Notes: generated by a model from the letters alone, not told the origin. A stretch of 58,005 nucleotides of DNA from a virus (IMGVR_UViG_3300032213_002204:1-58005); one strand, 5' to 3'; positions 17,111-52,892 are shown, counted from the stretch's first letter. Translations and numbers: made by a program.

Positions 17111-17539
17111 ATGAAAAAAATTATTATAGCCACATCTATTTTATTAACACTTACAGCTTGCGGAAGCAAGACTGTATACGTCACCAGCACTGAAGCGCCT
17201 GAGACAACAGTCAAGGTTGTCAAGACAACTGACGCACCAATTGCCACCTCACCAATGGACACTTATGCTCCGCCAGTCACATGGACAGACGAAGACGAGT
17301 TCATTGCAGACATCTACAACGAAAACACTGGCCCCATTTACCTTGAAGACCAAGACCTGATTGACACAGGATATGCCGTTTGCGAAGGATTGCGTAGTGG
17401 CATGAGTGGCTACGACGCCATTAATGCAATCACTTCATCAGCCGAAGGCAATGCTGCTGTAGAAGAACTCCTTATTAATGTTACAGCATCCGCCGTCATT
17501 AACTTTTGTCCCGAACAACAATATAAATTTAATGAATGA
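17111..17539 (+). CDS. DUF732-family lipoprotein
   Basis: lipobox LTAC; DEDEFI...GYAVCEGLRSG...AVINFCPE. Confidence 0.8.
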   Translation: MKKIIIATSILLTLTACGSKTVYVTSTEAPETTVKVVKTTDAPIATSPMDTYAPPVTWTDEDEFIADIYNENTGPIYLEDQDLIDTGYAVCEGLRSGMSGYDAINAITSSAEGNAAVEELLINVTASAVINFCPEQQYKFNE

Positions 17540-17761: not shown

Positions 17762-18226
17762 ATGGATCCGTTATTAGATATCTTTAATTCTTTTTTGTCA
17801 GAATATACCAAAACAAATGGATGGGATAGTCCCGCTTCCGTTTGGTTCTGGGATTACGATTCTTCTCAATGGAATTCTATTGAAGAATCTTATCAGGATC
17901 CATATGATTTAATCCCAACGCTTGTCGTCCATGGCTACCATGGTGCAGCTATGTTTGTAGTCCATGGATGGGCAGCTCCCTATAGTGAATATGAATATGA
18001 TGAATATGGAGAACCCACTCGTCCATCTAAGCATCCTGAGAGAATGCGAGTTCGTTCTTTCACTTATCTCAGTGGTGAAAATATTTTAAATTCATATCAG
18101 ATTATGGGCAAACCTATTGAAGAAGTTGAAGCTGAACCCGAAGGTGCTATTATTGATAGCATCATTATTGCCATCCACAAAATGAAAAAATACTTAGCTA
18201 AGGAAGTTTACAGTGAACAAGATTGA
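17762..18226 (+). CDS. hypothetical protein
   Basis: GAGG SD; GWAAP...RPSKHPERMRVR. Confidence 0.65.
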   Translation: MDPLLDIFNSFLSEYTKTNGWDSPASVWFWDYDSSQWNSIEESYQDPYDLIPTLVVHGYHGAAMFVVHGWAAPYSEYEYDEYGEPTRPSKHPERMRVRSFTYLSGENILNSYQIMGKPIEEVEAEPEGAIIDSIIIAIHKMKKYLAKEVYSEQD

Positions 18227-18692
18227 TTCTATTTTAAATAAAATTCTTTATGCTGTTGCTGTTTTATTTTTTCTTATAGCAGCTATTATACTTTTAACTG
18301 GCTGCGCAGTTACTCAAAGTGATACAACTACTACCTTGAAACCTATGCGCCCCACCAATGTTACTGTAGTTATTACTGATCCACAAATTATTCCATCATT
18401 TTCTGGAACAGTCAATAATACTTATATTCAAACTGTTGAGTTTTTTTATCAGGGAACTCCACCAGTTTCTGATCAAGTTATTATGGAATTCGGTGAGCAA
18501 TGGTGTGATCTATTGATAGATGGCATGCAGCCCGATGATGTTATTAACAGAATCCATGAAGGCGCTATTGATAACGACGATGCTCGTATGCACTTTTCAA
18601 TTGTAAATGCTGCTATACTAGAGCTTTGTCCCAGCCAATCCCATAAGTCTGAAGAGATCGCACTTAGATCTTTTCTTCCTAAGGAACAATAA
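18213..18692 (+). CDS. DUF732-like lipoprotein
   Basis: lipobox LTGC; FGEQWCDLLIDG...AAILELCP. Confidence 0.7.
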   Translation: MNKIDSILNKILYAVAVLFFLIAAIILLTGCAVTQSDTTTTLKPMRPTNVTVVITDPQIIPSFSGTVNNTYIQTVEFFYQGTPPVSDQVIMEFGEQWCDLLIDGMQPDDVINRIHEGAIDNDDARMHFSIVNAAILELCPSQSHKSEEIALRSFLPKEQ

Positions 18693-19343: not shown

Positions 19344-20105
19344 ATGACTTACCTCAGTAATGATAGCGATCTATTTGAATATGATCCAGAAGAAGATATT
19401 TCTACTCCAGACCTAGAAGAGATTAAAGATAATACTACTAAAAAAAAAACGAATGTTGACGATTTTCTTTCTCAACACAAAGATTTACTAGGTGTCTTAC
19501 AGACTTCTTCTGAACAATTATTAGACGAAAATAAAATTCGTTTAGCTACAGGCCTCCATGCAGCGACTTCTCGCTTCTTCGCTAAGATTGGACCGCCTAC
19601 TTTTGACAAATCAGTTTCAGTTGTTTTAGATAAGTTATCTAATGGAGATTTTTCTTTAATAAATACTTACTACCGGACAGAAGCTTTAATTATACAAAGA
19701 CTTTTATTTATTAGTTTAATGAATACTATTCTTGGTCTTGATTCTGATGAAAAGTCTGAAGATTCTTTTTCTGTAAAAAATCTTCTTGAAGCCTTGGAGT
19801 TTGAAAATGTTGACGATCATATCAAAATATTTTATCAGACATCCCTTAGCATCTGTCAACATACTTTAGTTCACGACAGAATTGTTTATCAACATCTTGG
19901 TGATCGCTTAAATATGCCCGTCAATCCAGATCTTATTGATCCACATTATTCTATTGATATTACCAAGTTAAATAATCCAGTAGTTAATGACTACGCAGAA
20001 AATGCCTATGCCTCAATCATGACAAGCATTGCTCAAGATGGTGTCCTTGAAAAACTCAAAGATACTTTCGGAATACAGATAGGTTATTACTCTAATGAAA
20101 AATAA
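19344..20105 (+). CDS. hypothetical protein
   Basis: 253 aa ORF. Confidence 0.7.
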   Translation: MTYLSNDSDLFEYDPEEDISTPDLEEIKDNTTKKKTNVDDFLSQHKDLLGVLQTSSEQLLDENKIRLATGLHAATSRFFAKIGPPTFDKSVSVVLDKLSNGDFSLINTYYRTEALIIQRLLFISLMNTILGLDSDEKSEDSFSVKNLLEALEFENVDDHIKIFYQTSLSICQHTLVHDRIVYQHLGDRLNMPVNPDLIDPHYSIDITKLNNPVVNDYAENAYASIMTSIAQDGVLEKLKDTFGIQIGYYSNEK

Positions 20106-20550
20106 ATTTTTTAAAAAGATACCTAAATTATTTTGGACCGTATCGAGCCTTGCTGCAGTAGCTGCAATTAACTATGCCTTAATTCCTACTCCATTTGTTT
20201 TTATTGCCCTTATGGTGCTTCTTGTCCATGAGTTGGCTCATTACTTTATGGCTAAAAAATTAGGAGCAGAAGTTACTCTTCCTGTATTCATTCCTTTACC
20301 TTTTATTGCCATAGCCTTTACCAAGATTAAAGGTTTATCCAGTAAATCAAAAATGAAAGTTGCATTGACGGGACCTATTACTGGATTCATTACGGCCTTA
20401 TTGCTTGTTATCCTTAACTCTATATTTAAAATTATATCTCCCGTAGCTTTGATTGTCTTAGCTATGGGTGAAATATTATTTAACTATATCGGCAATGACG
20501 GTAAGAAATATCGTTCTGCAAAGAAAGACATTATATTATGCACTTGTTAA
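20095..20550 (+). CDS. minimal M50 (site-2 protease-like) membrane metallopeptidase
   Basis: LLVHELAHYF (HExxH), VALTGP, distal NDG; hydrophobic. Confidence 0.75.
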   Translation: MKNKFFKKIPKLFWTVSSLAAVAAINYALIPTPFVFIALMVLLVHELAHYFMAKKLGAEVTLPVFIPLPFIAIAFTKIKGLSSKSKMKVALTGPITGFITALLLVILNSIFKIISPVALIVLAMGEILFNYIGNDGKKYRSAKKDIILCTC

Positions 20551-21384: not shown

Positions 21385-22779
21385 ATGCAAAATGTTAACT
21401 ATACATTTATTAACAACGAAGGCAACTTTGTCTTTCGTTCTAATATCAATTCATTTGGCTTAGACCATGTAACTGATAAAGACGTTACTTCTTTTTATAC
21501 TAATTTTTCTTCTTCATCTTATTTTGACACTGGCTTATTGCCTGTGGATGGTACTGGTTTACTCTCTATTAGAAAAGCTGGCAATCACACTCAGATTGCT
21601 TATCAGCATGCTCCCGGTAAATACTATATTAACTGGGGTTCCTATGAAGGCGACCATGAAGCTAGGAAGTATTATGTAGCTCAGCCTTACCGTATTGTTG
21701 TTGCTGACTTACTTAATGGCAATATATATGGCGCTAGAACTTACTACAGTCCAACGCCCATCACCTATCCACAAGCTCCTCTGTATCATGTTAATCTTCC
21801 CAATATTAACTGTAAAGGATATAGAGGAAATAGCGTTGGATGGATATGCCTTTATCATAATGAAGATATCTCAGCTTATCCATTCAATGAAAAACTTGTT
21901 AAAATCTTAGATCGCTGCTCAGGTACTGAAACCTATAATGATAATAACATGAGTGAAACTGATGGTCCATGTTTTTATCGTGAAAACTATAAGCCTAATT
22001 ACTTAACTAATCCTCAATATTGGCAAGACTATTCAGACCAAAATGGTTATGAATGGACTTTAGATCCAGAACTTTGGATTCCAATTCTAGTCGAAGGCAG
22101 AGACAATCAAGATAAACATTATTCTAATGGCCAACCTTTGACATTCGCTGATGCAATCATTGGCAATTACCAATGTTATTACACCGACAATTTAATTCCT
22201 AAGCCTGTCAATCGCATCGTCAGATCAGATTATTCTTTAAATTCTAATTTAGTTTTTGAATGGTTCAGAAACTCTTACAATGAATCGCAACAATCACAAC
22301 AACCTCAACCGTCTATAGATCCTTACTCTAGTAGTTTAGCTGTTAAAGAAACTCTTTCTTTGGCTGCTCCTGCTTTTGTAAATCAACAAGACGAAGACGA
22401 AGATGAACAAGAGGATGAAGACTCTTGGTATTGTGAATCTTGTCATGAAACTTTTTCTGAATCTAATCATAAACCAGTACTTGATTACAACTCAAGATAT
22501 ACTTGTCAAGACTGTATTGATGAGTCTTATTCATTTGCCGTGAATACTCAATCCTATCATCATGATGATGATGTTTTATGGCTTAGTCTCAGTGAAGTAT
22601 ATATTTTCCCTGATACTTTAACATATGCCCTTGAATATAAAATCTGCACTATTTGCAGTCAAGGAATGTATTACAATCATAAAGACTTTAATTCTTTTAT
22701 GCCACTCACAGTTACGTATCCTGATACATGCCAAACTTGCATTCATACACTGACCAATCCTTCCGAACAACTATTTTGA
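21385..22779 (+). CDS. prokaryotic E2-like protein (Prok-E2 family D / PRTRC-B-like) with Cys-rich C-terminus
   Basis: QPYRIVV...PLYHVNLPNIN...GWICL; acidic linker; four CxxC pairs; adjacent to JAB, E1 and Ubl. Confidence 0.65.
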   Translation: MQNVNYTFINNEGNFVFRSNINSFGLDHVTDKDVTSFYTNFSSSSYFDTGLLPVDGTGLLSIRKAGNHTQIAYQHAPGKYYINWGSYEGDHEARKYYVAQPYRIVVADLLNGNIYGARTYYSPTPITYPQAPLYHVNLPNINCKGYRGNSVGWICLYHNEDISAYPFNEKLVKILDRCSGTETYNDNNMSETDGPCFYRENYKPNYLTNPQYWQDYSDQNGYEWTLDPELWIPILVEGRDNQDKHYSNGQPLTFADAIIGNYQCYYTDNLIPKPVNRIVRSDYSLNSNLVFEWFRNSYNESQQSQQPQPSIDPYSSSLAVKETLSLAAPAFVNQQDEDEDEQEDEDSWYCESCHETFSESNHKPVLDYNSRYTCQDCIDESYSFAVNTQSYHHDDDVLWLSLSEVYIFPDTLTYALEYKICTICSQGMYYNHKDFNSFMPLTVTYPDTCQTCIHTLTNPSEQLF

Positions 22780-22818
22780 TTAATCAAAGAACTAGAAAAC
22801 ATTATAACAGGAGAAAAA

Positions 22819-24489
22819 ATGTCTGAACAAATTTCTTTTGATGACCTTCCCGTCATCTGGATGGAAGATGGTCTTCCTTGTTTCATGGGAGACCGTGCTG
22901 ATATCTGTGACCTCGCAGAATCCTTTGGATTTAATATATACTATCTATTAGCTAATCAAGCTAAAGAGGTCAAGCCTACACCTCCTCCGTCTAACACCAC
23001 TTATGGCAAACCCGCTGCTACTGCCTTGGCTGTTGCTCCTCCTACTTTTGTGAGAAATTCTCAAATCTATCGAGTAGTTAATAACTTTGTAGGTAGAACA
23101 GTTACTGTTTGTTCTCCTTCTTTTCCTCAATCATTTATTGATGTTGAAGAAGAAGCTACTTATTCGATGCCTGCTATTCCGCATATCTTAATCGATAAGC
23201 TAGATCAGTTCTTTAGACTCGTTGATGCACAACACGGTGCTGAATCTATTGTCATGCTTACCTATGACACCACTAAAGAAGGATCAGAAGGATGGGGCAT
23301 TCTTGTTCCCGATCAAACCAATACTTCTGTTCACTGTAATTATGATCCAGACAGCATCGCTCAAGTTAAGCCTGATGAAGTTATGATTGTAGGATCAGTT
23401 CACAGTCATCCTGGAATGTCTGCGTATGCTTCCGGAACAGACCATGCTGATCAAGCAGATTTTGATGGAATCCATATTACTTTTGGCTGGCAAAAGACAG
23501 TTAACAATGGTGCTACTCAATACTACGCTGAACTTCAAATGGCTGGCAAAGCCTATAAGCTTGACATCGAAGATGTCTTTGAAGAATATATTATTGAAAA
23601 AGCTCCTGATCCTGAAGTAGTAGGTTGGACTGAAAAAGTAAAAAAAGCCAACCCCCCCAAAGCGGGGGGTTCGGTTACGGTAACTACTGGGGCGGCGTAT
23701 CAGGCCCCTCGTCCAAACACGAATCAAGGGACTCCGGCCTCTACGGTAGCTGGTACTCTCCCTAAGAATCAATATTATATAGATTATCCTTCTCATATTA
23801 AAAATATAACACATGATGTTATAGATATTGACAATGATAATATTCTAGTTTGCGAGGTTGTTGGTAACTATGAAAACAAAACCTACAATTGTCCAGGTTG
23901 CTTCTCCATTATTGCTAAGCATGATGTGTATGCTAGTAACTGTTGCCCTTTTTGCGATATACCCTTATCTGAACAGGATACAACAGCAGACCAAATAATT
24001 TGGGATATGTTTCAATATTGCAATGATAGAAAAATTCCCACTAATGCTTCTCTGTATTTACTAACTGCAGATCTTGACAATTCTCCAATGCTTCTTAGGC
24101 TTACTGCAGAAACAATGGACGCTTATTCAGATTCTGCTTGGATAGATATAGAAGATAAAGCTTTAGATGTCGATCCTAGGTTGACGCTCTGCTGCAGCAT
24201 GATTCCAGAAAACTGCATGTGCCCTACTCAGGTTGTCACTTATGACTCTATGGATTTTGATCAATTCATGGGCAAGTCTTCAGTTTATGTCGCTAGTTCT
24301 GCTTGTGAAGTATGCAATTATTACTACGATACAAATTGTCCTAGCTATAGCAAAGCTATTGTAGATTTTAAATCAAATACAAATCAATCAGACAACAAAG
24401 ATAAATACGAAGATTCTATCGATGGAGTCAATTGCGACTTCTTTTCCGAATACACCTATTCTACTTCCGAGGATATTTATAATTCATGA
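22819..24489 (+). CDS. JAB/MPN+ metallo-isopeptidase with Cys-rich C-terminal extension
   Basis: upstream Glu (AESIV), IVGSVHSHPGMSAYASGTD (HxHx7Sx2D), GIHITFG. Confidence 0.9.
   Translation: MSEQISFDDLPVIWMEDGLPCFMGDRADICDLAESFGFNIYYLLANQAKEVKPTPPPSNTTYGKPAATALAVAPPTFVRNSQIYRVVNNFVGRTVTVCSPSFPQSFIDVEEEATYSMPAIPHILIDKLDQFFRLVDAQHGAESIVMLTYDTTKEGSEGWGILVPDQTNTSVHCNYDPDSIAQVKPDEVMIVGSVHSHPGMSAYASGTDHADQADFDGIHITFGWQKTVNNGATQYYAELQMAGKAYKLDIEDVFEEYIIEKAPDPEVVGWTEKVKKANPPKAGGSVTVTTGAAYQAPRPNTNQGTPASTVAGTLPKNQYYIDYPSHIKNITHDVIDIDNDNILVCEVVGNYENKTYNCPGCFSIIAKHDVYASNCCPFCDIPLSEQDTTADQIIWDMFQYCNDRKIPTNASLYLLTADLDNSPMLLRLTAETMDAYSDSAWIDIEDKALDVDPRLTLCCSMIPENCMCPTQVVTYDSMDFDQFMGKSSVYVASSACEVCNYYYDTNCPSYSKAIVDFKSNTNQSDNKDKYEDSIDGVNCDFFSEYTYSTSEDIYNS
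23640..23765 (+). other. candidate -1 ribosomal frameshift cassette with a 39-codon alternative tail
   Basis: in-frame A AAA AAA heptamer; AACCCCCC/GGGGGGTT hairpin just downstream; -1 frame reads SQPPQSGGFGYGNYWGG...WYSP*. Confidence 0.6.
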
Positions 24490-25247
24490 ACTCACAACCA
24501 AAACGCTTTATACTAGTTGGAGCAGGTGGCATTGGCACTTGGCTTGCAGCAGGTCTTGTTAGACTTCTTGAATGGAAGTTTCCTGGATCTGCTCTTATCA
24601 TCGTTGACGGTGATACCTATGAGGAAAAAAATAAAGAACGACAAGACTTTACTAAGCTTGGCAATAAAGCCGTAGTTAAAGCTACTGAACTTGTTCCTCA
24701 ATTTCCCAAAACTACAATTATACCTGTAGCTAAATGGGTAGTGGCCGATGATTATTCTGGTGTCACTGACGAAGAAAGTCCTAAGATTACAGCTTCTCAA
24801 CTTATACGTGAAGATGATGTAGTCTTTGCAGTCGTTGACAACTTTGCTGCTAGAAAAATTATATTTGATGCTGCCGCTAAGTTGAACAATATTGACGTCT
24901 TTACTGGCGGTAATGATGATGACCTTTTTGGTTCTATCTATCATTACCAAAAGCGAGATGGTTACGAAGTAACCGTTCATCCAGCTGAGTTCCATCCAGA
25001 ATATCACAATCCTCCTGACAAGAATCCCGGTGAGCTTTCTTGCCAAGAGCGTTCAGAGATATCAGGAGGCACTCAACTACTTGCTACTAACATGGCTGTT
25101 TCAGCCTACATTCTAGGACGAGTTCAGAAAACAATCGTGTCCAATCAAAGTCCTGAAGAAACAGAGATTTTCTTTGATCTTGGTCTCGGTAAGTCCGAAC
25201 CCTATAATAGAACCACATCAGCTCTCAATCAACCAACCACAGTATAG
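24486..25247 (+). CDS. E1-like ThiF-family adenylyltransferase
   Basis: VGAGGIG, VDGDTYEEKNKERQ, VDNFAARK, candidate catalytic Cys in LSCQ. Confidence 0.92.
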   Translation: MNSQPKRFILVGAGGIGTWLAAGLVRLLEWKFPGSALIIVDGDTYEEKNKERQDFTKLGNKAVVKATELVPQFPKTTIIPVAKWVVADDYSGVTDEESPKITASQLIREDDVVFAVVDNFAARKIIFDAAAKLNNIDVFTGGNDDDLFGSIYHYQKRDGYEVTVHPAEFHPEYHNPPDKNPGELSCQERSEISGGTQLLATNMAVSAYILGRVQKTIVSNQSPEETEIFFDLGLGKSEPYNRTTSALNQPTTV

Positions 25248-25260
25248 TTAGGAGAATATC

Positions 25261-25515
25261 ATGGAAGCATCAAACGCATCGAACGCTCAGCCAAATCGTT
25301 CAACTGGTATGGCGAATATTCGCTATGGAGTTTACAACCAGCCCAGTAACATTGGTGGAAAGTCCATTCGTGAAGTTCGCGAACAGTTCAGCAAAATTTG
25401 GGGCATTCCCTCTGACGCAGTAGCTTACTGCGGCAAGGACAAGCTCGACGAGAACGCGGTTATTCAGCCAGGTCAAAACGTAGAGTTCCACCGCCGTGCA
25501 GGCGAAAAGGGCTGA
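25261..25515 (+). CDS. ubiquitin-like (beta-grasp) modifier protein
   Basis: GKSIREVR...GIP......LDENAVIQPGQNVEF pattern; exposed C-terminal RRAGEKG; follows E1. Confidence 0.85.
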   Translation: MEASNASNAQPNRSTGMANIRYGVYNQPSNIGGKSIREVREQFSKIWGIPSDAVAYCGKDKLDENAVIQPGQNVEFHRRAGEKG

Positions 25516-25528
25516 TTAACCCATATTC

Positions 25529-25568
25529 GGGGGAGGGTGCTGCTGGCATCCTCCCCCATATTTTTTTT
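25529..25568 (+). terminator. intrinsic terminator after the Ubl gene
   Basis: GGGGGAGGGTGC/GCATCCTCCCCC stem, then ATA and T8. Confidence 0.75.
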
Positions 25569-25603
25569 ATAAAGCCTACAGTTAGTTTGACGGTGAAAAA
25601 ATT

Positions 25604-27214
25604 ATGTTTGACAAAATTAAATTAGGTTATCCTAATATCTGGATTAAGGATTCTGATTCTTCCAGAATTATAGATATCATTACTACTACTCTTCCTAGAG
25701 ATTTTTATACTATTGATTTCCTTTCTGGATTCTCATTGTATTCCAATAATGCTTGGAAGACTGTCTTGGTAGAAAATCCAGCCTTTCAGTTAACTGGCGA
25801 AGACCAGTACATTTCCACCTTTGACCCTCAGGTTTCCTTAGATTATTTATTGCATAATCCTGACCGTCCCAAGAATCCCACAACTCTTATTATTGATGTC
25901 GTAGGTAAGCCCGACTCTGCTTTGGAAAACTATGGTTTATTTCTAAGTCATTTGAAATCTAAATATCGTCAAGCTTTTTGGCAAGATGACATGAGTCTTC
26001 TTCCACTGCAGTTTATTTTTATTTCAACACAGGATTGTCCGGAAGACTATCTTCCTTACTTTAATGTCAATGAAGACGTTATGCCCAATCCTCAAGAGCT
26101 AGCTACTATTGTTACTCATATTAATGAATCTGCACATGACCGCCTTCTCAATAACACTAGCGTCAAAGACGTTGTTAATGCCGGCATTGGACTCACCGAG
26201 TCTCAATTCATTGATCTTTGCTTAACGTCTATCGTTAATACTTCTCAACTTGATCCTAAATTCATTTACGATCAAAAGATGGCCAGCATTAAAAAGAATG
26301 GCATTCTAGAAATTATTAAACCCACTACTTCTTTTGCTGATATTGGTGGACTTAATAATATTAAAGATATCATTCGTCGAACCGCAGTACTCTGGAACGA
26401 TAAAGATCGAGCCAAATCTTTTGGAGTTACTCCTATCCGTAGACTTCTTATGGTTGGAGTTCCCGGCACTGGCAAATCAGCTATATGCCAGGCCACTGCA
26501 AATGAGCTTGGCTTAGACTTGGCACGTACAGGCATCAGTCAAGTTATGAACTCTTTCATTGGTCAATCAGAGGCCAACATGCGTGCCGTATTCAAACAGA
26601 TTAGACTTATGTCTCCCTTATGTGTTTGGATTGACGAGTTCGGTCGTGATCTTTCCGGCGGATCTAGTTCTTCCCATGTAGATGGTGGCACTACTGATCG
26701 TGTTCATGGTGAGTTCTTAACTGGTCTTCAGGAACTTCCAGAGGAAACATTCCTGCTTTGTGCAGCCAATCAACTAGAAGCTCTTCGTCCAGAAATGTTA
26801 CGCGCAGATCGCTTTGACAAAATTATGTTTGTTGGACTTCCTTCTCATGAAGAGCGTAAACATATTTTTCATATTCACTTAGATAAAATTGACACTGATC
26901 ATGATTATGATTATGATTCTTTGGCCGAAGCTTCTAAGTATATGACTGGTGCTGAGATTCTTTCTCTTATCCGTGAAACAAAATTCTATGTAGTTTCAGA
27001 ATCTCTTCGCCCTATAACTACCAAAGATATCCTTAGTTTTATTCCTAAAACCAAAAACACTATTTGGCTCAAACATAATGACATGGTTATGTCCATGTAT
27101 CAGTATGCCTTAGAGCAGTGGGATTGGGCCTCGACAGAACAAATGGAAGATGCTAGAATCATACTAGGAAAGTCTTCTGTTAAAAAACAAACGTCAACAA
27201 TTGCTTGGAAATAA
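25604..27214 (+). CDS. classical AAA+ ATPase (Ycf46/Cdc48-like)
   Basis: SFADIGGL, GVPGTGKS, FIGQSEAN, WIDE, AAN...PEMLRADRFD, TGAEI. Confidence 0.92.
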   Translation: MFDKIKLGYPNIWIKDSDSSRIIDIITTTLPRDFYTIDFLSGFSLYSNNAWKTVLVENPAFQLTGEDQYISTFDPQVSLDYLLHNPDRPKNPTTLIIDVVGKPDSALENYGLFLSHLKSKYRQAFWQDDMSLLPLQFIFISTQDCPEDYLPYFNVNEDVMPNPQELATIVTHINESAHDRLLNNTSVKDVVNAGIGLTESQFIDLCLTSIVNTSQLDPKFIYDQKMASIKKNGILEIIKPTTSFADIGGLNNIKDIIRRTAVLWNDKDRAKSFGVTPIRRLLMVGVPGTGKSAICQATANELGLDLARTGISQVMNSFIGQSEANMRAVFKQIRLMSPLCVWIDEFGRDLSGGSSSSHVDGGTTDRVHGEFLTGLQELPEETFLLCAANQLEALRPEMLRADRFDKIMFVGLPSHEERKHIFHIHLDKIDTDHDYDYDSLAEASKYMTGAEILSLIRETKFYVVSESLRPITTKDILSFIPKTKNTIWLKHNDMVMSMYQYALEQWDWASTEQMEDARIILGKSSVKKQTSTIAWK

Positions 27215-27223
27215 GGAACTATA

Positions 27224-27859
27224 ATGTCTGAATCATATGATAATATTGATGAATTTCTTGCCACTCTAGATAACGATGGAGCTAAAGAAACTTTAAAAAA
27301 TATAGATAATAAAGATTATCAACAGGATCTATATAAGAAATGGTTTAGATCCAAGACCCAAAGCGGATTCTTGGCTATTCGTCCTTGGCATCAAGCTTTA
27401 AAGATGAAGATTGATATCGGCAAAACTTCTTCAGAAGGAAAGCTTCAAAGCAGCACTGCAGTCTTTGTTGACTCAGTCGACTTTGCTGCCTATTTGCGAA
27501 GCGTAGCTAACGGCACAGCTACTGTAAATTATCCTCAAAACGAAAGAACAGGAGCTCCAACTAATGAAGCTTTTGTTTCTTATGGTGGTGCTACTATAGA
27601 CGGTAAGCCTGTTTCAAGAATATTCAAAGCTCATTACTGGCAGTCCGCTGAGACTACAGACGAAACTGCTTTTGTTTGGAAGTGTGGCCACTTTGCTGCC
27701 CGCAAATCTGATAGCGGAGCTTTTATTCCTGACATGAAGTCTCCTTTATCTATTGATCAAATTAAAGTAACTCGTCAAGACATATGCTCTATTGCATATC
27801 TTATGGATCTTTCCATGAATTCCCATGTCACTAACAATCAAGATTGGTATGAAATATGA
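27224..27859 (+). CDS. hypothetical protein
   Basis: AAGGA SD; 211 aa. Confidence 0.7.
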   Translation: MSESYDNIDEFLATLDNDGAKETLKNIDNKDYQQDLYKKWFRSKTQSGFLAIRPWHQALKMKIDIGKTSSEGKLQSSTAVFVDSVDFAAYLRSVANGTATVNYPQNERTGAPTNEAFVSYGGATIDGKPVSRIFKAHYWQSAETTDETAFVWKCGHFAARKSDSGAFIPDMKSPLSIDQIKVTRQDICSIAYLMDLSMNSHVTNNQDWYEI

Positions 27860-28242
27860 GCGATGACAATGAACACCTAGATCAGCATACTGCTGAATTC
27901 ATGACTAAGTTTTTCCAAGATATCATTGGGGGCTTAGCTTCTCAAATAGAAGATCGTCTTTCTGTCTTGGAAACTTCTATTGAAGCTATTGAAAAGCAAA
28001 TTGCAACTTTAATTATAAGCTATGGCGAACAAGCAGTTTTTACTGAAGCTCTTGTTGGCCAAATGGCTTTCGCTTCCGATGAAGCTCGTAAAGCATTCCA
28101 TGAGGCATTGAGTGAATCTCGTAAAAATATGTTGGAGGTTATGCAGAATGCATCCAAAGGAATCTTGGCTGATGAGAATCCAGGAGTTGCCTCAGCCCTT
28201 ACAAACATGGCTACAGAAAAGTTATCTGACACAGACCTCTGA
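27856..28242 (+). CDS. coiled-coil hypothetical protein
   Basis: ATGA coupling. Confidence 0.65.
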   Translation: MSDDNEHLDQHTAEFMTKFFQDIIGGLASQIEDRLSVLETSIEAIEKQIATLIISYGEQAVFTEALVGQMAFASDEARKAFHEALSESRKNMLEVMQNASKGILADENPGVASALTNMATEKLSDTDL

Positions 28243-35342: not shown

Positions 35343-35600
35343 ATGACTATCCACGCCTCTAGCGATTTTGATAGTTCTTTTATTAAAACTATTGGTTGGG
35401 ATTCTCTTAATAAGAATCTTATGGTTCACTTTAAAAGTGGTTCTTTCTGGATATATCATAATGTTCCTAAAGCAGATTATCTACAGCTCATTGCTGCCCC
35501 CTCGGTGGGCCAATATTTTAATAAAAATATCAGAGATGTCTATTCTTCCCAGAAGTTTAATATTCAAGACTTACTTCCTTTAGAACACTTTTCTTTGTAG
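35343..35600 (+). CDS. KTSC domain protein
   Basis: SSFIKTIGWD...L.VHFKSG..W.Y.NVP...Y..L..APSVGQYFNKNIR. Confidence 0.9.
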   Translation: MTIHASSDFDSSFIKTIGWDSLNKNLMVHFKSGSFWIYHNVPKADYLQLIAAPSVGQYFNKNIRDVYSSQKFNIQDLLPLEHFSL

Positions 35601-35834
35601 AACTTTATTATTATGAAGAAAAAATATTCTAAAAATAGTAAATTTAGGCAGAGTTTTCCCGCTAAGCGTTACCCTTCCAAAACTACTTACATAGATACTG
35701 CCACTACTTCTGCAGACATACATCTTATTGCCTCTGAAGTTTTTGGATCTTCCTATTATATTAGTCATGATATGTTAACGGTTTTATAGATTTTGTGGTA
35801 TACTTGTATAACACTATAAGTACCAGGAGATATC

Positions 35835-36167
35835 ATGTCTGAAGAAAAACCTAGTGAAGTACCTTCTAAAGAGCTTGAGGTAGCGCCCAAAAAAGTTAAT
35901 GTTAAATCTCCCGTTCCTCACAAGCACAAAGTGTATAAGATTGTTTGGCGCGATGCCTTTTCCGAAATGGACGAATGGCATGACACATCAACTGTTGATA
36001 GAGAAGATTATCTTTGCGAGACTATTGGCTACTTAATTGTCAATAACGGCAAGAAGCAATATTATACTATGGCTTCTACTATTACTGCAGATGGCTTTTT
36101 TTGTTGTGTTATCAACATACCTAAAGCTATGGTTATTTCTAAGCAAAGAATTAATATTACTATTTAA
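35835..36167 (+). CDS. phage hypothetical protein
   Basis: AGGAG SD; IVWRDA...CETIGYL...IPKAMV; TGGTATACT at 35796. Confidence 0.65.
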   Translation: MSEEKPSEVPSKELEVAPKKVNVKSPVPHKHKVYKIVWRDAFSEMDEWHDTSTVDREDYLCETIGYLIVNNGKKQYYTMASTITADGFFCCVINIPKAMVISKQRINITI

Positions 36168-36180
36168 CGAAAGAACTTTT

Positions 36181-36582
36181 ATGAACGAAACTTTAACTTG
36201 TACGGTTTGTTCTAAAAAATGGAAAAGAGAAAAACTTCGTGGCCGTAAACCGCTTTTATGCCCTAAGTGCGTAAAAGATCAAAATATACCTTTGCCCGAA
36301 ATTTCTTCAAAACCTTTACCTATTCCTTTGGTTCAATCAGATGTCAAGAATGATTTAATTACTTCTTCAGATTTTACACTTACTCCCGGCAAAGTTTATA
36401 CTGCACTTCACCCTAAGCCTTCTAACTACAAGGACCTTCTCCAGCAGACCAGAAATGGATCAACATGGAAATGTCCGAATTGTAATCATATATTAATACT
36501 AGAAATACCTGTCTCGGACATTCCCACTCATCGCTGTACTCCAAACATGGTTAGCGTAAAATTATATGAGAGAATAAAATGA
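36181..36582 (+). CDS. zinc-finger protein
   Basis: CTVC..CPKC and CPNC..HRC. Confidence 0.65.
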   Translation: MNETLTCTVCSKKWKREKLRGRKPLLCPKCVKDQNIPLPEISSKPLPIPLVQSDVKNDLITSSDFTLTPGKVYTALHPKPSNYKDLLQQTRNGSTWKCPNCNHILILEIPVSDIPTHRCTPNMVSVKLYERIK

Positions 36583-41503: not shown

Positions 41504-41727
41504 CATTTAATGAATGGCTCCAAATCGGCATTGATAACAGATGGTGTGGTCCGGCTATTTGCGAGACCCATGATAGCCTACCCCTTACGGAGGATGAGTC
41601 AGAGATGATATGGAGTGGAGATGATCCCTGTATCCACATTATACGCCTCTATGAGAGCCCCGAACACGCTGAGGCTATAGAGCAGTCACATTCTCCATCT
41701 ATGTGGAGAAAACCCTATATAGGGTAA
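41500..41727 (+). CDS. phage hypothetical protein
   Basis: GAGG SD; WCGPAICETHD...GDDPCIHIIRLY. Confidence 0.65.
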   Translation: MTFNEWLQIGIDNRWCGPAICETHDSLPLTEDESEMIWSGDDPCIHIIRLYESPEHAEAIEQSHSPSMWRKPYIG

Positions 41728-41786
41728 ATTTGAAAAAAAATTTTGAAGGCCAAATTCGTTTTAGAAGAAAGTTTAGTTTTTGGAAA

Positions 41787-42395
41787 ATGAATATTAATAT
41801 TGAATCTTTAATAAATTTAAATATATTTACAACAAAACTGTTAGATATTGATAATAATTTTTTGTCTAAAAATATATTAGATAATTTAAACACCCCAAAT
41901 GTGCCAGGATTTTTAGAATCACATAATCATACTTATCACGAAGATACTATTTTAAATGAATCTGAAGAATTAAATAAATTAATAACAGAAATAGCAATTT
42001 TTGCAGGAGATGTAACCAGCAGGAAATATATTTTAGAATCAATTTGGGGACTTGTCTTAAATAAGGGACAGTCAGTTATGATGCACACACATAAATCCAA
42101 TAGGCATATGCACCCGGAGGAATATTATTCAATTGCATATTACCCACAGGTTCCAGAAGGTTCAGCTGACTTGATATTTTCATTAAATTATTGTAATATA
42201 ATTGAGGAAGTAAAAAGAATCAAGCCAGAAGAAGGTCTGCTAGTTATGTTTAATTCTTACATACCACACATGACAAGTGATCATAAGTCGCAAATTCCAA
42301 GAATTGTGATAAGTGCAAATATTGCACCGGAAAATCCAAACACAGAAATAGTACCAGATTGGTCTCCATATAAACTAAGGAATAGCAATGAATAA
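41787..42395 (+). CDS. 2OG-Fe(II) oxygenase-like protein
   Basis: W......HTH, SIAYY, PEEG.LVMFNSYIPH, RIVISAN. Confidence 0.8.
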   Translation: MNINIESLINLNIFTTKLLDIDNNFLSKNILDNLNTPNVPGFLESHNHTYHEDTILNESEELNKLITEIAIFAGDVTSRKYILESIWGLVLNKGQSVMMHTHKSNRHMHPEEYYSIAYYPQVPEGSADLIFSLNYCNIIEEVKRIKPEEGLLVMFNSYIPHMTSDHKSQIPRIVISANIAPENPNTEIVPDWSPYKLRNSNE

Positions 42396-42565
42396 CAATG
42401 TTATGTTTTGTTCAGATCCATATGCGCAAAGCGCAGAATATTATTATGATATTGATTTTAAATATAAAATAATAGCTATAGATAATCTAAATAATATAAT
42501 TGACGAAGCCGCAAAAGAATTCGTTATTCAATGCTCAAGTAACGCACTAGCCTAAGGTTGACCGG

Positions 42566-43246
42566 ATGTTTCTTTTGGATAATTTTATTAAAGATGATCA
42601 ATTAATCTCTGCTATTAAATCTGACAAAGATTTTTTTCCAGATACATCAGATGTAGATAATATTGGTCAATACAATAATCATTTTCATAGTGGTATGTCG
42701 TCATGTCACGCTCCCTACATGTTTTGGGATGGTTGGTGGTCTTCACCAGCTAATACCCTGAGGAAAAAGGTTATTGAAAAAATATGGACCCATACTGATA
42801 CCTTACCAATTTCAATAAAAGAAGTTTGTGGATTTGAGTATTGGTGTAGGACTTTTAAGGAAGGGCAATATTTAGATGTTCATGTGGATGAAGACACATT
42901 TGCCTACTCTAAAGATAAGACATTTAATGCCCCTGTTTATGGGGCAATTTGGTACGGTTTTTCAGAATGCCAAGAAGGTGGATTTTTAGAGATTCATAAG
43001 AATAGCATAGAAGGTTTTCCAAAAAATATATTAGAAAAAGAAAATTTTAATAACTTTATTTCTAGTGCAAATGAAAAAGAAAGAATAGCTTACGTTCCAA
43101 ATAGATTAATAACATTTGATGCCGGAAGACGCGTGCACGAAACTACCAAAATTGTTTCCGGAACTAGGCAAGTTATGGTTATTAATATTTGGCATAAGGA
43201 TTGTCCGCCATCGGCATTAAGAACCGGTGAGTTCTATTATGAATGA
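42566..43246 (+). CDS. 2OG-Fe(II) oxygenase-like protein
   Basis: GFEYW, HVDED, GGFLEI, PNRLITFD...H, R. Confidence 0.8.
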   Translation: MFLLDNFIKDDQLISAIKSDKDFFPDTSDVDNIGQYNNHFHSGMSSCHAPYMFWDGWWSSPANTLRKKVIEKIWTHTDTLPISIKEVCGFEYWCRTFKEGQYLDVHVDEDTFAYSKDKTFNAPVYGAIWYGFSECQEGGFLEIHKNSIEGFPKNILEKENFNNFISSANEKERIAYVPNRLITFDAGRRVHETTKIVSGTRQVMVINIWHKDCPPSALRTGEFYYE

Positions 43247-43757
43247 TGTATTTATTATTAATAACTTTTATAAAAACTGTGACGAAATTTTACAACATAT
43301 ATCTTTTAATCAGAATCTATACACCTTTCATCAAGGAGATAATGCCTATAATTACAGTAGTTTTCCAGAAACAAATGATATAGATTTAATTATTGATTTT
43401 TGTGATAGCATAAGGTATGAAATACAAGACAAATATAATGTTAAATTAAAAAGTAGGAATCATCTTAATGCGTTAATTTATTTAATCGGAGGGCAAAAGG
43501 GTCCACACACAGATGAGTACCATAATGCCGATGACTTAGTCAATAGAAAAAAAATACATGTATATAGTTCAGTTTATTACCCCAATGATGATTACGTTGG
43601 TGGTGAGCTATGTTTTCCAAATATTAATTTAAAAATTAAACCAGAAAAAAATTCTTTAGTTCTTTTCCCTTGCGAATATTTACATTACGTAGAGAAAATA
43701 ACATCAGGAAATAAAATATCAATCACTCACTTTTGGGAGCTTTCAAATGAATTATAA
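43227..43757 (+). CDS. prolyl-4-hydroxylase-like 2OG-Fe(II) oxygenase
   Basis: HTD, YPNDDYVGGELCF, KP..LVLFP...HYV. Confidence 0.85.
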   Translation: MSSIMNDVFIINNFYKNCDEILQHISFNQNLYTFHQGDNAYNYSSFPETNDIDLIIDFCDSIRYEIQDKYNVKLKSRNHLNALIYLIGGQKGPHTDEYHNADDLVNRKKIHVYSSVYYPNDDYVGGELCFPNINLKIKPEKNSLVLFPCEYLHYVEKITSGNKISITHFWELSNEL

Positions 43758-44322
43758 AGGATCTAGTGGACAAGAGCAATTTGTTCTAGAATTATTAAAC
43801 TATAAAAAAAATGGATACTATGTGGAGCTTGGAGCATTTCATTCCACGTTGGGTAGCAATACATATCATTTGGAAAATGATTATGATTGGAATGGTGTCT
43901 CTTTTGAAATAGACGAAAAAAGAAAAGAAGAATTTATTTCAAATAGAAAAAATCCATGTGCCGGAGACGCGTTAAAGTTTAATTATATATCTTATTTTGA
44001 AGAAAATAATTTTCCAAAACAAATAGATTATTTACAAGTAGACATAGATAATGGCTACGATATAGATTGTAAACCCTTTGGCAATCATTACACTACATTA
44101 TTAGGATTGATTAGTGTTCCATTAAGTTTGTATAGATTCACAATTATAACTTTTGAACATGACACAAATATGTACTTTAGAAATAAAGGAATGCGTGACG
44201 CGCAGAGAGAGATTTTAGACTGCCTAGGGTATACGCTTGTAGTGAGAGAACAGCACGAAGACTGGTGGGTAGACTCAAATGTAATACCAATTAATACATA
44301 CAGAAAATATCTTAGATCCTAA
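43747..44322 (+). CDS. FkbM-family methyltransferase-like protein
   Basis: GYYVELGA...SNTY.LE...WNGVSFE, IDYLQVDID, ITFEHD, EDWWV. Confidence 0.8.
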   Translation: MNYKGSSGQEQFVLELLNYKKNGYYVELGAFHSTLGSNTYHLENDYDWNGVSFEIDEKRKEEFISNRKNPCAGDALKFNYISYFEENNFPKQIDYLQVDIDNGYDIDCKPFGNHYTTLLGLISVPLSLYRFTIITFEHDTNMYFRNKGMRDAQREILDCLGYTLVVREQHEDWWVDSNVIPINTYRKYLRS

Positions 44323-45086
44323 AGGGACATGTCCTTGATAAGATTTGGCATCCATATTTTATGTGGATTTTCTTTTCCGACATACTCATCTCCATCAAAC
44401 GATACTCCATAGGAAGATACGCTCAAATAGGCGTAGCGTTCACCGCTTGTTACTGGAAGTACCTCATGTCTTCCTAGGTAATTAGATGGATAAATTGCAA
44501 CCGAACCAGCTTGTGGGCGGTACGTGTAGTCCATATTGGGAAAACGCAACTCCCCACCCTCGTAATGTTCTCCGCAGTTATTTAAGTATAAGTTTATACT
44601 CGTACTATTATATAGAGAAACTTGATTTCCCGGTATCTGACCCCATTCATGAGGCACTTGATCATCGCAGTGAGGACCTATTCTTTGGTCTACGGCATAA
44701 GCAGCTATGTGCCCATGGGGACGCCACCAGGAGGTAGTAGATGCGTCTGGGAAGATCTTACAGTATTGAACAAGGGCAGAATAAATTGCGCTTTCAAATA
44801 GGGAAATTAAATCTAACCACTCTTGCTTTGGTTTGTCTTGACAATTAGCTCCTTTTAAATCTAAAAATCTTTGTGGAGCCATCAATATATCGCTAATATT
44901 AAACTTAAAACCTGTTTTATTTTTAGCGTATTTTACGCCATCTTCTTCGTGAATTGTAAATGTTTCTTCTTGATTATCCTTTAGCCATTGTATATATTCT
45001 GTTAGAATTTTATTATCTACTGAAATAACATCAGTAAGTATAACAACGCCCATACCTATGTGTTCATGTTTCATAATATCACCCAA
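44319..45086 (-). CDS. 2OG-Fe(II) oxygenase (WWxxxGH paralogue)
   Basis: HCD, YLN, YEGGELRF, PSNYLGRHEV..V.SGERY. Confidence 0.85.
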   Translation of the reverse strand: MGDIMKHEHIGMGVVILTDVISVDNKILTEYIQWLKDNQEETFTIHEEDGVKYAKNKTGFKFNISDILMAPQRFLDLKGANCQDKPKQEWLDLISLFESAIYSALVQYCKIFPDASTTSWWRPHGHIAAYAVDQRIGPHCDDQVPHEWGQIPGNQVSLYNSTSINLYLNNCGEHYEGGELRFPNMDYTYRPQAGSVAIYPSNYLGRHEVLPVTSGERYAYLSVSSYGVSFDGDEYVGKENPHKIWMPNLIKDMSL

Positions 45087-47831: not shown

Positions 47832-47894
47832 TTTTATTTATTAACTCCTAATGTCTTACAATAAATTATACCATAAATCAGAGTGGATCTATGG

Positions 47895-48635: not shown

Positions 48636-48949
48636 TACACCACCTGCTTAGCAAATTGCATCCAAGACCATAGTCTTCTGATGTTTGAAATTACATTTTT
48701 ATTTATTGATTTTAAATACATATCTGAACTTAAGTTTGGGTTTATTTCTCCTAAATCAGTATTTATTATTTTATTGTCATAATAAAATGTATATCTAATT
48801 CTTTCAATAATATCATCTATAGTTATAAAATATAAATCACTTTCATTAAAGCCAATTAGGTAAAATATATATAATATTTGTTCTTCCACATAATTAAGAT
48901 CACTATTAGGACTGTATCCTGGACTATTTTTTGAACAGACTCTTGACAC
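48635..48949 (-). CDS. hypothetical protein
   Basis: coupled ORF. Confidence 0.6.
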   Translation of the reverse strand: MSRVCSKNSPGYSPNSDLNYVEEQILYIFYLIGFNESDLYFITIDDIIERIRYTFYYDNKIINTDLGEINPNLSSDMYLKSINKNVISNIRRLWSWMQFAKQVV

Positions 48950-49215: not shown

Positions 49216-49228
49216 AAAAAATCCTTAA

Positions 49229-49447: not shown

Positions 49448-49459
49448 AATAACCTCTTT

Positions 49460-50338: not shown

Positions 50339-50377
50339 AATAAACCTTTTCGTTAAGTCTACTTAAGATAGTAACAG

Positions 50378-52719: not shown

Positions 52720-52892
52720 TATATTTTTTCTCCTATTGTTTAGCTAGGAAATCATTGTAGCACAAGCACACACATAGGTGCAATATCTATTCCTCTATTT
52801 ATCATTAAACTTATGCCAAAAAATTAATGCAGAAACCTCGCTGCTTTCTAAAAAATCAAAAATAATTGTTAGATTTTTATGTTTTAGAAATT

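What the first reader, a model, noticed from the sequence alone, without database searches (positions are those of the whole stretch)
21385..27214. Complete phage-encoded ubiquitin-like conjugation system coupled to an AAA+ ATPase
Consecutive genes encode an E2-like protein (LPN...GWIC Cys, plus CxxC fingers that could act as an E3-like adaptor), a JAB isopeptidase with an intact HSH..S..D motif, an E1/ThiF with a candidate thioester Cys, an 84 aa beta-grasp protein ending RRAGEKG, and a Cdc48/Ycf46-like AAA+ ATPase. The component set and the GxKG end resemble PRTRC and other prokaryotic Ubl operons whose targets are unknown. No sulfur-transfer or cofactor genes are present. Characterised bacterial E1-E2-Ubl-JAB systems (Bil, CBASS Cap2/Cap3) are anti-phage, whereas here the virus owns writer, eraser, tag and a possible unfoldase. 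Inference: it tags host or phage proteins for remodelling, possibly competing with actinobacterial pupylation or countering defences.
Basis: partly seen in the sequence, partly recalled or inferred. Interest (0 to 1): 0.92.

Follow-up and report, generated by a model that had tools for sequence, protein, structure and literature searches.

The report
Phage-encoded ubiquitin-like tagging cassette
A large freshwater phage carries its own set of ubiquitin-like tagging genes (tag, activating enzyme, probable carrier enzyme, removing enzyme), a distant relative of the uncharacterised PRTRC cassette; what it tags is unknown.

Summary
Window 21385-25515 encodes four consecutive genes. (1) A 464-aa protein with an invariant Asn140/Cys155 core, remotely homologous to PRTRC protein B (Pfam Prok-E2_D), plus a C-terminal zinc-finger domain. 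(2) A JAB/MPN peptidase with an intact motif. (3) A 253-aa ThiF-type E1 with an invariant Cys186. (4) An 84-aa protein whose model is a ubiquitin fold ending in an invariant ...AGEKG.

The cassette is conserved in order in every uncut related viral contig, which reach 216 kb. Related E2-JAB-E1 cassettes occur in cultured Bacillus, Vibrio, Salmonella, Acinetobacter and Ralstonia phages; the Bacillus phages have head-to-tail poly-Ubl genes.

I read it as a phage-owned Ubl conjugation and deconjugation module, a divergent variant of the PRTRC / Iyer class 6d kind. The E2 assignment rests on weak but consistent evidence.

The claimed coupling to the AAA+ ATPase is not supported beyond adjacency. 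A conserved terminator hairpin separates the Ubl gene from the AAA gene. AAA homologues occur in 88 other phage records. None of six cultured-phage cassette loci has one nearby.

Targets, host and any link to pupylation are unknown. My literature searches found no functional study of such phage systems.

The parts
21385..22779 (+). E2-like protein, 464 aa. The N-terminal ~320 aa form a conserved Cys155/Asn140 domain, remotely homologous to PRTRC_B / Prok-E2_D. Residues ~345-460 form a variable multi-CxxC zinc-finger domain.
22819..24489 (+). JAB/MPN+ metallopeptidase, 556 aa. It has an N-terminal domain, an MPN core at ~110-280, a Pro/Thr/Gln-rich linker and a C-terminal Cys-rich domain.
   Evidence: Prok-JAB E 3.1e-5. 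PRTRC_A E 5.5e-4. E142, H195, H197, S205 and D208 invariant, with conserved CxxC pairs. hhalign vs the PRTRC_A-like set 93.8%, E 1.8e-7.
24486..25247 (+). ThiF-type E1 adenylyltransferase, 253 aa, single domain.
   Evidence: Pfam ThiF 45.7 bits. Best NCBIfam hit PRTRC_ThiF, 1.1e-6. GAGGIGT, R52-Q53, D118 and C186 invariant. The Cys aligns with a Cys in the PRTRC ThiF of phage Dina and in the Bacillus phage E1s. It is the most conserved gene of the neighbourhood, 67-100% identity.
25261..25515 (+). Ubiquitin-like tag, 84 aa: a disordered N-terminus of ~15 aa, a beta-grasp core, and a flexible tail ending in Gly84.
   Evidence: AF2 pLDDT 80.6, order beta-beta-alpha-beta-beta-beta. 24 PDB hits at E <= 1e-3; every listed row is ubiquitin, SUMO, NEDD8 or another Ubl domain. 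hhalign vs the PRTRC_C-like set 93%, E 3.3e-7. C-terminus (A/S)GEKG in 120 of 120 listed relatives; 117 end at the Gly and 3 have 2-residue tails.
25529..25567 (+). Intrinsic-terminator-like hairpin (13-bp stem, 9 G-C pairs) plus T-run, directly after the Ubl stop codon.
   Evidence: Scan. A stable hairpin at the same position, with different stem sequences, in 12 of 12 relatives folded. Contigs from RNA libraries stop at 25527 and 25570, a weak hint.
25604..27214 (+). Single-ring classical AAA+ ATPase, 536 aa, with an N-terminal domain of no known family. It is an adjacent gene; membership in the system is not shown.
   Evidence: Pfam AAA 1.1e-22 and AAA_lid_3. CDC48, PAN and FtsH families 1e-24 to 1e-36, all far below their cut-offs. 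phrog_8638 4.1e-64. PADLOC IetA 3.5e-28. GVPGTGKS, VWIDEF, a SFIGQSE pore-loop-like motif and RPEMLRADRFD are read from the sequence; their names are recalled.

Best explanation
Window 21385-25515 is a phage-owned ubiquitin-like conjugation and deconjugation module. It is a highly diverged relative of the PRTRC cassette (Iyer et al. 2006, operon class 6d).

Inferred mechanism:
1. The 84-aa beta-grasp tag is made with its reactive Gly84 already exposed. In a few relatives two extra residues must first be trimmed.
2. The 253-aa ThiF-type E1 adenylates Gly84 with ATP and probably takes the tag onto Cys186.
3. The tag passes to Cys155 of the E2-like protein, with Asn140 in the place of the E2 'HPN' asparagine.
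4. The C-terminal cross-brace-like zinc-finger domain of the E2-like protein picks the targets, acting as an E2 with a built-in E3-like adaptor.
5. The JAB/MPN+ peptidase removes the tag or trims precursors.

The module looks like a core function of this phage clade rather than an accessory island. The neighbouring AAA+ ATPase is not demonstrably part of it.

Shown here: the genes, their motifs, the ubiquitin fold of the tag's model, remote homology to PRTRC components, and conservation.
Inferred: thioester relay, isopeptide formation, the role of the zinc fingers, and the targets.
For: - Gene set and motifs.
- Tag: the model matches ubiquitin, SUMO and NEDD8 (24 PDB hits at E <= 1e-3, probability 1.0, TM about 0.6). 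No ThiS or MoaD chain is among the listed rows.
- C-terminus: (A/S)GEKG in 120 of 120 listed relatives. 117 end at the Gly and 3 carry 2-residue tails. Among 14 loci, 3 have tails.
- Homology to PRTRC parts: tag 93%, E 3.3e-7. JAB 93.8%. E1 best hit PRTRC_ThiF, with an aligned conserved Cys.
- E2-like vs PRTRC_B: the probability rose as the profiles were enriched, 6% to 20% to 52.7% (E 1.4e-4). The register stayed the same, LYHVNLPN...GWIC against LHVAPYFNV...GEIC. The score of 37.6 compares with 40 column shuffles at 13.6 +/- 2.4 (maximum 21.2) and a reversed control at 20.3.
- Controls show PRTRC_B = Pfam Prok-E2_D and PRTRC_C = Prok_Ub.
- The Atlas's nearest clusters carry Prok-E2_D on 13-20% of members.
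- Independent phage lineages carry E2-JAB-E1 in the same order. In Bacillus phages the tag is a 4-5x head-to-tail poly-Ubl, which passes the PRTRC_C and Prok_Ub cut-offs.
- Core-gene behaviour: E1 is 67-100% and the tag 57-100% identical across relatives whose flanking genes fall to 23-40%.
Against: - No Pfam or NCBIfam E2 model hits any family member: 0 of 31 and 0 of 73. The PRTRC_B and PRTRC_C models find nothing at E <= 10 in four related contigs.
- The loop before Cys155 (residues 142-150) is modelled at pLDDT below 50.
- PRTRC proteins D, E and F and a ParB-like gene were not found in the window.
- No PRTRC system has a demonstrated conjugation activity that I could find.
- Because 117 of 120 tags already end at the Gly, JAB is rarely needed for maturation, so its real substrate is unknown.
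- Synteny within one phage clade is weak evidence for a functional unit.
Confidence: 0.62

Rival explanations
1. The Ubl cassette and the AAA+ ATPase form one pathway: tagged host or phage proteins are recognised and unfolded by the AAA+ ring, and possibly degraded.
For: - The AAA gene follows the tag gene in all 22 uncut related loci.
- It is a classical-clade AAA with a pore-loop-like motif and an N-terminal domain of unknown family.
- Two cassette-bearing relatives, G002 and the contig of L013, also encode a 203-aa protein that passes Pfam's Proteasome cut-off (29.6 vs 22.4 bits). It starts M-TTIVAL and lies about 8.5 kb downstream of the AAA gene.
Against: - A conserved terminator hairpin separates the tag and AAA genes.
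- Homologues of this AAA occur in 88 phage records, such as Mycobacterium, Pseudomonas and Rhizobium phages. None of the phage genera listed there appears in the E1 searches.
- 0 of 6 cultured-phage cassette loci has an AAA homologue.
- The proteasome-like gene is absent from the window, including its syntenic slot at 35561-36187. No ClpP was found in two near-complete relatives.
- All relatives are collinear, so adjacency carries little weight.
Confidence: 0.15
2. The tag is attached to the phage's own virion or assembly proteins, for decoration, cross-linking or assembly control. Some of the machinery may be packaged in the virion.
For: - Depositors label the poly-Ubl gp211 of Bacillus phage vB_BceM_WH1 'virion structural protein'.
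- Depositors label the E2-like gp248c and the E1 gp246c of Salmonella phage Arash 'structural protein', next to baseplate and PAAR genes.
- The tag gene is followed by a strong terminator, as abundant late genes often are (inference).
Against: - I could not see the basis of these labels; no paper on these phages was found.
- In the window the cassette sits among helicase, SSB and UDG genes, about 28 kb from the tail-fibre gene.
Confidence: 0.12
3. This is not a protein-conjugation system. The E1 activates the tag's C-terminus for sulfur transfer or other acyl-adenylate chemistry, or the Cys155 protein is a different thiol enzyme. Alternatively the cassette is a Bil-like weapon against competing phages.
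For: - ThiF enzymes do several chemistries (search listing of PMC12596934 only).
- The characterised bacterial E1/E2/Ubl/JAB systems are anti-phage (passages of PMC10557695).
- The E1 shows weak similarity to CBASS E1-E2 models (6.5e-5).
Against: - There is no rhodanese domain on the 253-aa E1, and no thiamin or Moco genes among the window ORFs scanned.
- The tag's model matches Ub, SUMO and NEDD8; no ThiS or MoaD chain is among the listed rows.
- It ends GEKG, not the GG that I recall for ThiS and MoaD.
- No PADLOC hit for the E2-like protein, JAB or the tag.
- Strict conservation in every relative is unlike a variable defence island.
Confidence: 0.1

Closest known systems
PRTRC system (NCBIfam TIGR03735-03742; operon class 6d of Iyer, Burroughs and Aravind 2006, PMC1779556), found on plasmids and ICEs and, in canonical form, in Ralstonia phage Dina
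   Same: - Gene order E2-like (B), JAB (A), ThiF.
- A small beta-grasp tag ending G-x-K-G.
- An E2-like protein lacking the classical E2 histidine but with a conserved Cys; His158 three residues after Cys155 is near-invariant in the close family only, not across the 140 representatives.
- A JAB with an extra N-terminal domain.
- A single-domain E1 with an aligned Cys.
(Passages read.)
   Different: - None of the four proteins reaches a PRTRC model cut-off. Two of them, the E2-like protein and the tag, get no HMM hit at all.
- No PRTRC D, E or F (alpha-hel2) and no ParB-like gene.
- The tag gene lies after the E1 gene, not upstream.
- The E2-like and JAB proteins are about twice as long, with C-terminal Cys-rich zinc domains.
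- The E2 loop before the Cys carries a 7-residue insert.
Poly-Ubl / E2 / JAB / ThiF cassettes of cultured large phages: Bacillus phages vB_BceM_WH1, Edson and vB_BauM_KLEB27-3, Vibrio phage D69, Salmonella phage Arash, Acinetobacter phage ME3
   Same: A phage-borne E2-like, JAB and E1 in the same order, with a tag of the Prok_Ub / PRTRC_C kind.
   Different: - In the Bacillus phages the tag is a 4-5x head-to-tail polyprotein of 57-aa units that must be cut. Vibrio phage D69 has a repeat-containing tag-like ORF, supported only weakly (full E 2.7e-4).
- Their E2-like proteins are about 240-290 aa and lack zinc fingers.
- No AAA gene lies nearby.
- Sequence identity to the window's proteins is at most about 27% for the E1.
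Bil (BilABCD) and type II CBASS Cap2/Cap3 bacterial anti-phage conjugation systems
   Same: - The E1, E2, Ubl and JAB logic.
- A conserved Gly, sometimes followed by a few residues.
- An extended loop before the E2 Cys (passages of PMC10557695).
   Different: - Those systems are host-encoded defences.
- The Bil E1 is multidomain (IAD + AAD + CYS) and Cap2 is an E1-E2 fusion. Here the E1 is a 253-aa single domain.
- PADLOC gives no hit for the E2-like protein, JAB or the tag, and only a weak Rossmann-region hit for the E1.
ThiS/MoaD-ThiF/MoeB sulfur-carrier pairs
   Same: A ThiF-fold adenylating enzyme plus a beta-grasp protein with a C-terminal Gly.
   Different: - No sulfurtransferase domain and no cofactor-biosynthesis genes.
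- JAB and E2-like partners are present.
- The tag's model is nearer to Ub, SUMO and NEDD8.

Membership tests
PRTRC system | ThiF protein matching TIGR03736 at its curated cut-off | tested here: not met
   It is the best NCBIfam hit, but at 28.2 bits against a cut-off of 144.75. Remote homology is likely, and the Cys aligns.
PRTRC system | Protein A (DUF2016 + JAB) matching TIGR03735 | tested here: not met
   19.6 bits against a cut-off of 101.8. Profile-profile comparison gives 93.8%, E 1.8e-7, over residues 80-224, so it is a remote homologue, not an equivalog.
PRTRC system | Protein B (Pfam Prok-E2_D) with a conserved Cys | tested here: inconclusive
   No HMM hit. hhalign gives 52.7%, E 1.4e-4, score 37.6, against a shuffle maximum of 21.2. 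Cys155 aligns with the PRTRC_B Cys.
PRTRC system | Protein C (Pfam Prok_Ub) ending G-x-K-G | tested here: inconclusive
   No HMM hit. hhalign gives 93%, E 3.3e-7, end to end including the C-terminus.
PRTRC system | Proteins D, E and F and a ParB-related gene in the cassette | tested here: not met
   None among the 49 window ORFs scanned with Pfam or the 10 scanned with NCBIfam.
Ubiquitin-like conjugation system (generic E1-E2-Ubl-DUB) | Beta-grasp modifier with an exposed or exposable C-terminal Gly | tested here: met
   Model and fold search. C-termini of relatives.
Ubiquitin-like conjugation system (generic E1-E2-Ubl-DUB) | E1 with adenylation motifs and a candidate catalytic Cys | tested here: met
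   ThiF domain over its cut-off. Invariant GAGGIGT, R52-Q53, D118 and C186. The motif names are recalled.
Ubiquitin-like conjugation system (generic E1-E2-Ubl-DUB) | E2 with a UBC fold and a catalytic Cys after an Asn-containing loop | tested here: inconclusive
Ubiquitin-like conjugation system (generic E1-E2-Ubl-DUB) | JAB/MPN+ metal site, E...HxH...S..D | tested here: met
   E142, H195, H197, S205 and D208 invariant in 13 of 13.
Ubiquitin-like conjugation system (generic E1-E2-Ubl-DUB) | Formation of thioesters and isopeptide conjugates | not testable with these tools
   This needs biochemistry.
BilABCD / CBASS Cap2-Cap3 | Multidomain E1 (IAD + AAD + CYS) or an E1-E2 fusion; membership in defence-system models | tested here: not met
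   The E1 is 253 aa with a single domain. PADLOC gives only weak E1-E2 hits (6.5e-5) over residues 6-86 and nothing for the other three proteins.
ThiS/MoaD sulfur-carrier system | Sulfurtransferase partner and cofactor-biosynthesis genes nearby | tested here: not met
   None among the scanned ORFs. All equivalog ThiF/MoeB models score far below their cut-offs.
Cdc48/p97 | Two AAA rings (D1 + D2) with a Cdc48 N domain | tested here: not met
   One AAA domain only, residues 281-411. CDC48 model 125.5 bits against a cut-off of 802.65, matching only its D2 part.

The most novel reading that the evidence does not exclude
Large phages run their own ubiquitin-like protein-tagging pathway as a core part of infection. 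In this clade the tag may feed a phage-encoded AAA+ unfoldase and, in some relatives, a phage-encoded proteasome/HslV-like peptidase. That would be a viral ubiquitin-proteasome-like system in bacteria, the mirror image of host Bil and CBASS defences.
Probability: 0.15. Interest if true: 0.95.

Novelty: new variant of a known kind. Interest (0 to 1): 0.74.

Why it matters
All experimentally studied bacterial E1/E2/Ubl/JAB systems that I could find are host defences against phages. Here the phage owns the tag, the writer and the eraser. The genes are among the best-conserved genes of a widespread clade of freshwater phages: near-identical DNA was found in runs of 8 studies, and related contigs reach 216 kb.

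The E2-like family has 458 clusters and no family annotation in any library searched.

Related cassettes sit in cultured phages, including poly-Ubl precursors in Bacillus phages. The function of the long-unexplained PRTRC kind of cassette could therefore be tested directly in a phage-host pair.

If the module tags host or virion proteins, it would be a new layer of phage-host conflict. It would also be a new source of orthogonal protein-ligation tools.

Tried and rejected
- Complex prediction on E1 + tag + E2-like N-domain: no answer, score 0.00 in both runs, controls not run. This is evidence neither way.
- PDB sequence-profile searches with the E2-like and tag alignments: nothing meaningful.
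- Foldseek against the PDB with the full E2-like model: no hit at E <= 1e-3. The top rows were family-B DNA polymerases at TM below 0.1, which is noise.
- Pfam on 31 and then 73 E2-like family members: no Prok-E2 hit. The Atlas lead to Prok-E2_D therefore could not be confirmed by HMM.
- NCBIfam PRTRC_B and PRTRC_C models against four related viral contigs: no match at E <= 10.
- The search for homologous proteins with the KLEB27-3 E2-like gp196: only 2 hits, of no use for enriching a profile.
- The profile search over representatives listed only the best 150 of 214 hits, so the most distant ones were not seen.
- DNA search of GenBank phages: no match.
- Whole genome of the window: not held.
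- Promoter scan: 47 sites against 39.1 +/- 5.7 expected, so uninformative.
- RNA-library contigs: no contig covers 25620-25850 in any of the four runs. This is not evidence of absence, and contig depth cannot rank genes.
- Literature: searches with phage / ubiquitin-like / ThiF / JAB / jumbo phage / PRTRC / Prok_Ub / 'phage-encoded ubiquitin' found no study of a phage-encoded system. No paper was found on phages WH1, KLEB27-3 or Arash.
- ClpP family in two near-complete relatives: none.
Full report
**Context.** The window is low-GC DNA (about 29-48% G+C in 2-kb windows, about 37% on average). It is phage DNA. It holds seven scattered tRNA genes, a tail-fibre gene, a helicase, SSB, UDG, SLT-type lysozymes and an array of 2OG-Fe(II) oxygenase paralogues. 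It has no DNA match among GenBank phages. Related IMG/VR contigs reach 216 kb; CheckV rates one 100% complete and one of 193 kb 92% complete. Near-identical DNA is held by lake and river metagenomes of 8 studies. No whole genome is held for the window. The host is unknown.

**Observation.** The five ORFs are as described.
- JAB has Prok-JAB at E 3.1e-5, 24.3 bits against a 25-bit cut-off. The E1 has ThiF at 45.7 bits. The ATPase has AAA at 1.1e-22.
- In NCBIfam the best hits of the JAB protein and the E1 are PRTRC_A and PRTRC_ThiF, both far under their cut-offs.
- The E2-like protein and the tag hit nothing in Pfam, NCBIfam, PHROGs or PADLOC.
- The same order (M50-like, g20948, E2-like, JAB, E1, tag, AAA, g27224, g27856) is kept in 22 of 23 related loci, that is 17 of 18 distinct contigs; the 18th is cut.
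- The E1 (67-100% identity) and the tag (57-100%) are the best-conserved genes there. Flanking genes fall to 23-40%.

**The tag.**
- Its AF2 model has pLDDT 80.6, with the core above 90. The order is beta-beta-alpha-beta-beta-beta with a flexible tail.
- Foldseek finds 24 PDB chains at E <= 1e-3. Every listed row is ubiquitin, SUMO, NEDD8 or another Ubl domain (probability 1.0, TM about 0.6). No ThiS or MoaD chain is among the listed rows.
- The family has 246 clusters. Of the 120 listed, all carry (A/S)GEKG; 117 end at that Gly and 3 have two more residues.
- Profile-profile comparison with PRTRC_C of Ralstonia phage Dina plus the repeat units of the Bacillus phage proteins gives 93%, E 3.3e-7, aligned to the very C-terminus.

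**The E1 and JAB.**
- In the E1, GAGGIGT, Arg52-Gln53, Asp118 and Cys186 are invariant in 13 of 13.
- Cys186 aligns with a Cys in the PRTRC ThiF of phage Dina and in the Bacillus phage E1s.
- The JAB metal site (E142, H195, H197, S205, D208) is invariant. The protein has an N-terminal domain and a C-terminal Cys-rich domain with conserved CxxC pairs.
- JAB matches PRTRC_A-type proteins at 93.8%, E 1.8e-7.

**The E2-like protein.** This is the weak point.
- The family is large: 458 clusters and 214 representatives at 50% identity. None of the 120 listed carries a family domain or a name beyond 'hypothetical protein'.
- Across 140 representatives the invariant residues include Asn140, Gly152, Trp153 and Cys155. 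Cys143 and Cys178 are not invariant. Cys155 is therefore the candidate active site.
- No E2 HMM hits any member, and the PRTRC_B model finds nothing in four related contigs.
- hhalign against PRTRC_B-type proteins improved as the profiles grew: 6%, 20%, then 52.7% with E 1.4e-4 over 189 columns.
- The register was always the same. LYHVNLPN...GWIC falls on LHVAPYFNV...GEIC, with a 7-residue insert in the window's loop.
- Forty column shuffles scored 13.6 +/- 2.4 (maximum 21.2) and the reversed alignment 20.3, against 37.6 for the real one.
- Controls confirm that PRTRC_B is Pfam Prok-E2_D and PRTRC_C is Prok_Ub.
- The AF2 model (pLDDT 79.6; loop 142-150 below 50) has a helix, a beta-meander, a long loop with the Asn, the Cys strand, then helices.
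- Foldseek against the PDB found nothing.
- Against BFVD the model hits its own family (1e-47), a 241-aa unnamed phage protein (1.5e-9) and ME3_136 (E 0.037). ME3_136 is the gene beside the PRTRC_A gene of Acinetobacter phage ME3.

**Relatives in cultured phages.**
- Bacillus phage vB_BceM_WH1 has gp211, gp214, gp215 (JAB) and gp216 (ThiF). gp211 is five 57-aa repeats, each ending ...EFKVQAGTKG, followed by a short tail.
- gp211 and its KLEB27-3 homologue (four repeats) pass the PRTRC_C and Prok_Ub cut-offs. KLEB27-3 gp196 hits PRTRC_B weakly (0.0011).
- Vibrio phage D69, Salmonella phage Arash and Acinetobacter phage ME3 have E2-like, JAB and ThiF by my local profiles.
- Ralstonia phage Dina has a canonical PRTRC cassette, E-C-F-B-A-ThiF.
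- The kind is thus widespread in phages, and databases partly annotate it as PRTRC. I found no functional study.
- Iyer et al. 2006 predicted class 6d operons on mobile elements (passages read).

**The AAA+ ATPase.**
- It is a single-ring classical AAA, IetA-like in PADLOC.
- A 13-bp hairpin with a T-run lies between the tag and AAA genes. A stable hairpin with different stem sequences sits at that place in 12 of 12 relatives.
- Contigs from RNA libraries of relatives (90-95% alike; both contigs from one study, P8) run 22810-25527 and 24478-25570 and stop there. This is a weak hint, since contigs cannot show RNA ends.
- Homologues of the AAA occur in 88 phage records. None of six cultured-phage cassette loci has one.
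- Two cassette-bearing relatives do encode a proteasome/HslV-like protein (Pfam Proteasome, 29.6 bits). The window lacks it, also at the syntenic slot.

**Verdict.**
- The interpretation as a phage-owned Ubl conjugation system is the best reading (confidence about 0.6). It is a divergent variant of the PRTRC kind.
- The AAA coupling, the targets and the pupylation idea remain speculation.

Noticed in passing
L024:1781-2680 (Bacillus phage vB_BceM_WH1 gp211); L025:7995-8702 (vB_BauM_KLEB27-3 gp199); L029:3379-4179 (Vibrio phage D69): Head-to-tail poly-Ubl genes: 5x and 4x 57-aa units, each ending ...AG(T/V)KG, followed by a short tail. They lie a few genes upstream of JAB and ThiF in cultured jumbo phages. 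WH1 gp211 is labelled 'virion structural protein' by its depositors. The Vibrio D69 ORF shows only weak repeated matches to the tag's C-terminal part.
   Followed up: partly
G002:C1:102976-103587 (L036/L045) and L041 (the contig of L013): A 203-aa proteasome/HslV-like protein (Pfam Proteasome, 29.6 bits, over the cut-off; starts M-TTIVAL). It lies about 8.5 kb downstream of the AAA gene in two cassette-bearing relatives and occurs in 8 viral contigs in all. It is absent from the window's syntenic slot at 35561-36187.
   Followed up: partly
window 41703-53525, both strands: An array of 2OG-Fe(II) oxygenase paralogues. Eight ORFs hit phrog_61 or phrog_81, and one more hits Pfam 2OG-FeII_Oxy_3 weakly.
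   Followed up: no
window 2923-37106: Seven tRNA genes scattered among + strand genes: Arg-TCT, Leu-TAA, Lys-TTT, Met-CAT, Thr-TGT, Ile-TAT, Asn-GTT.
   Followed up: no
window 17111-17539 and 18213-18692: Two DUF732 proteins, one with a lipoprotein signal. That the family is mainly actinobacterial is recalled. This is the only hint to the host.
   Followed up: no
window 20095-20550: A 151-aa membrane protein with an HELAH motif and a partial Peptidase_M50 hit (29.6 bits). It is kept upstream of the cassette in all relatives.
   Followed up: no
window 27224-27859 and 27856-28242: Two well-conserved genes after the AAA gene (56-99% and 44-92% identity) with no family. The Atlas gives only a weak Whirly lead (0.83) for the first.
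   Followed up: partly
L026:1501-4536 (Salmonella phage Arash gp248c, gp247c, gp246c): An E2-like, JAB and ThiF cassette beside baseplate and PAAR genes. The E2-like protein and the E1 are labelled 'structural protein' by the depositors; I did not see the basis.
   Followed up: partly
window 50378-50998 and 51269-51994 (- strand): A glutathione peroxidase (GSHPx, 2e-26) and a DUF6065 protein (8.4e-41) inside the oxygenase array.
   Followed up: no
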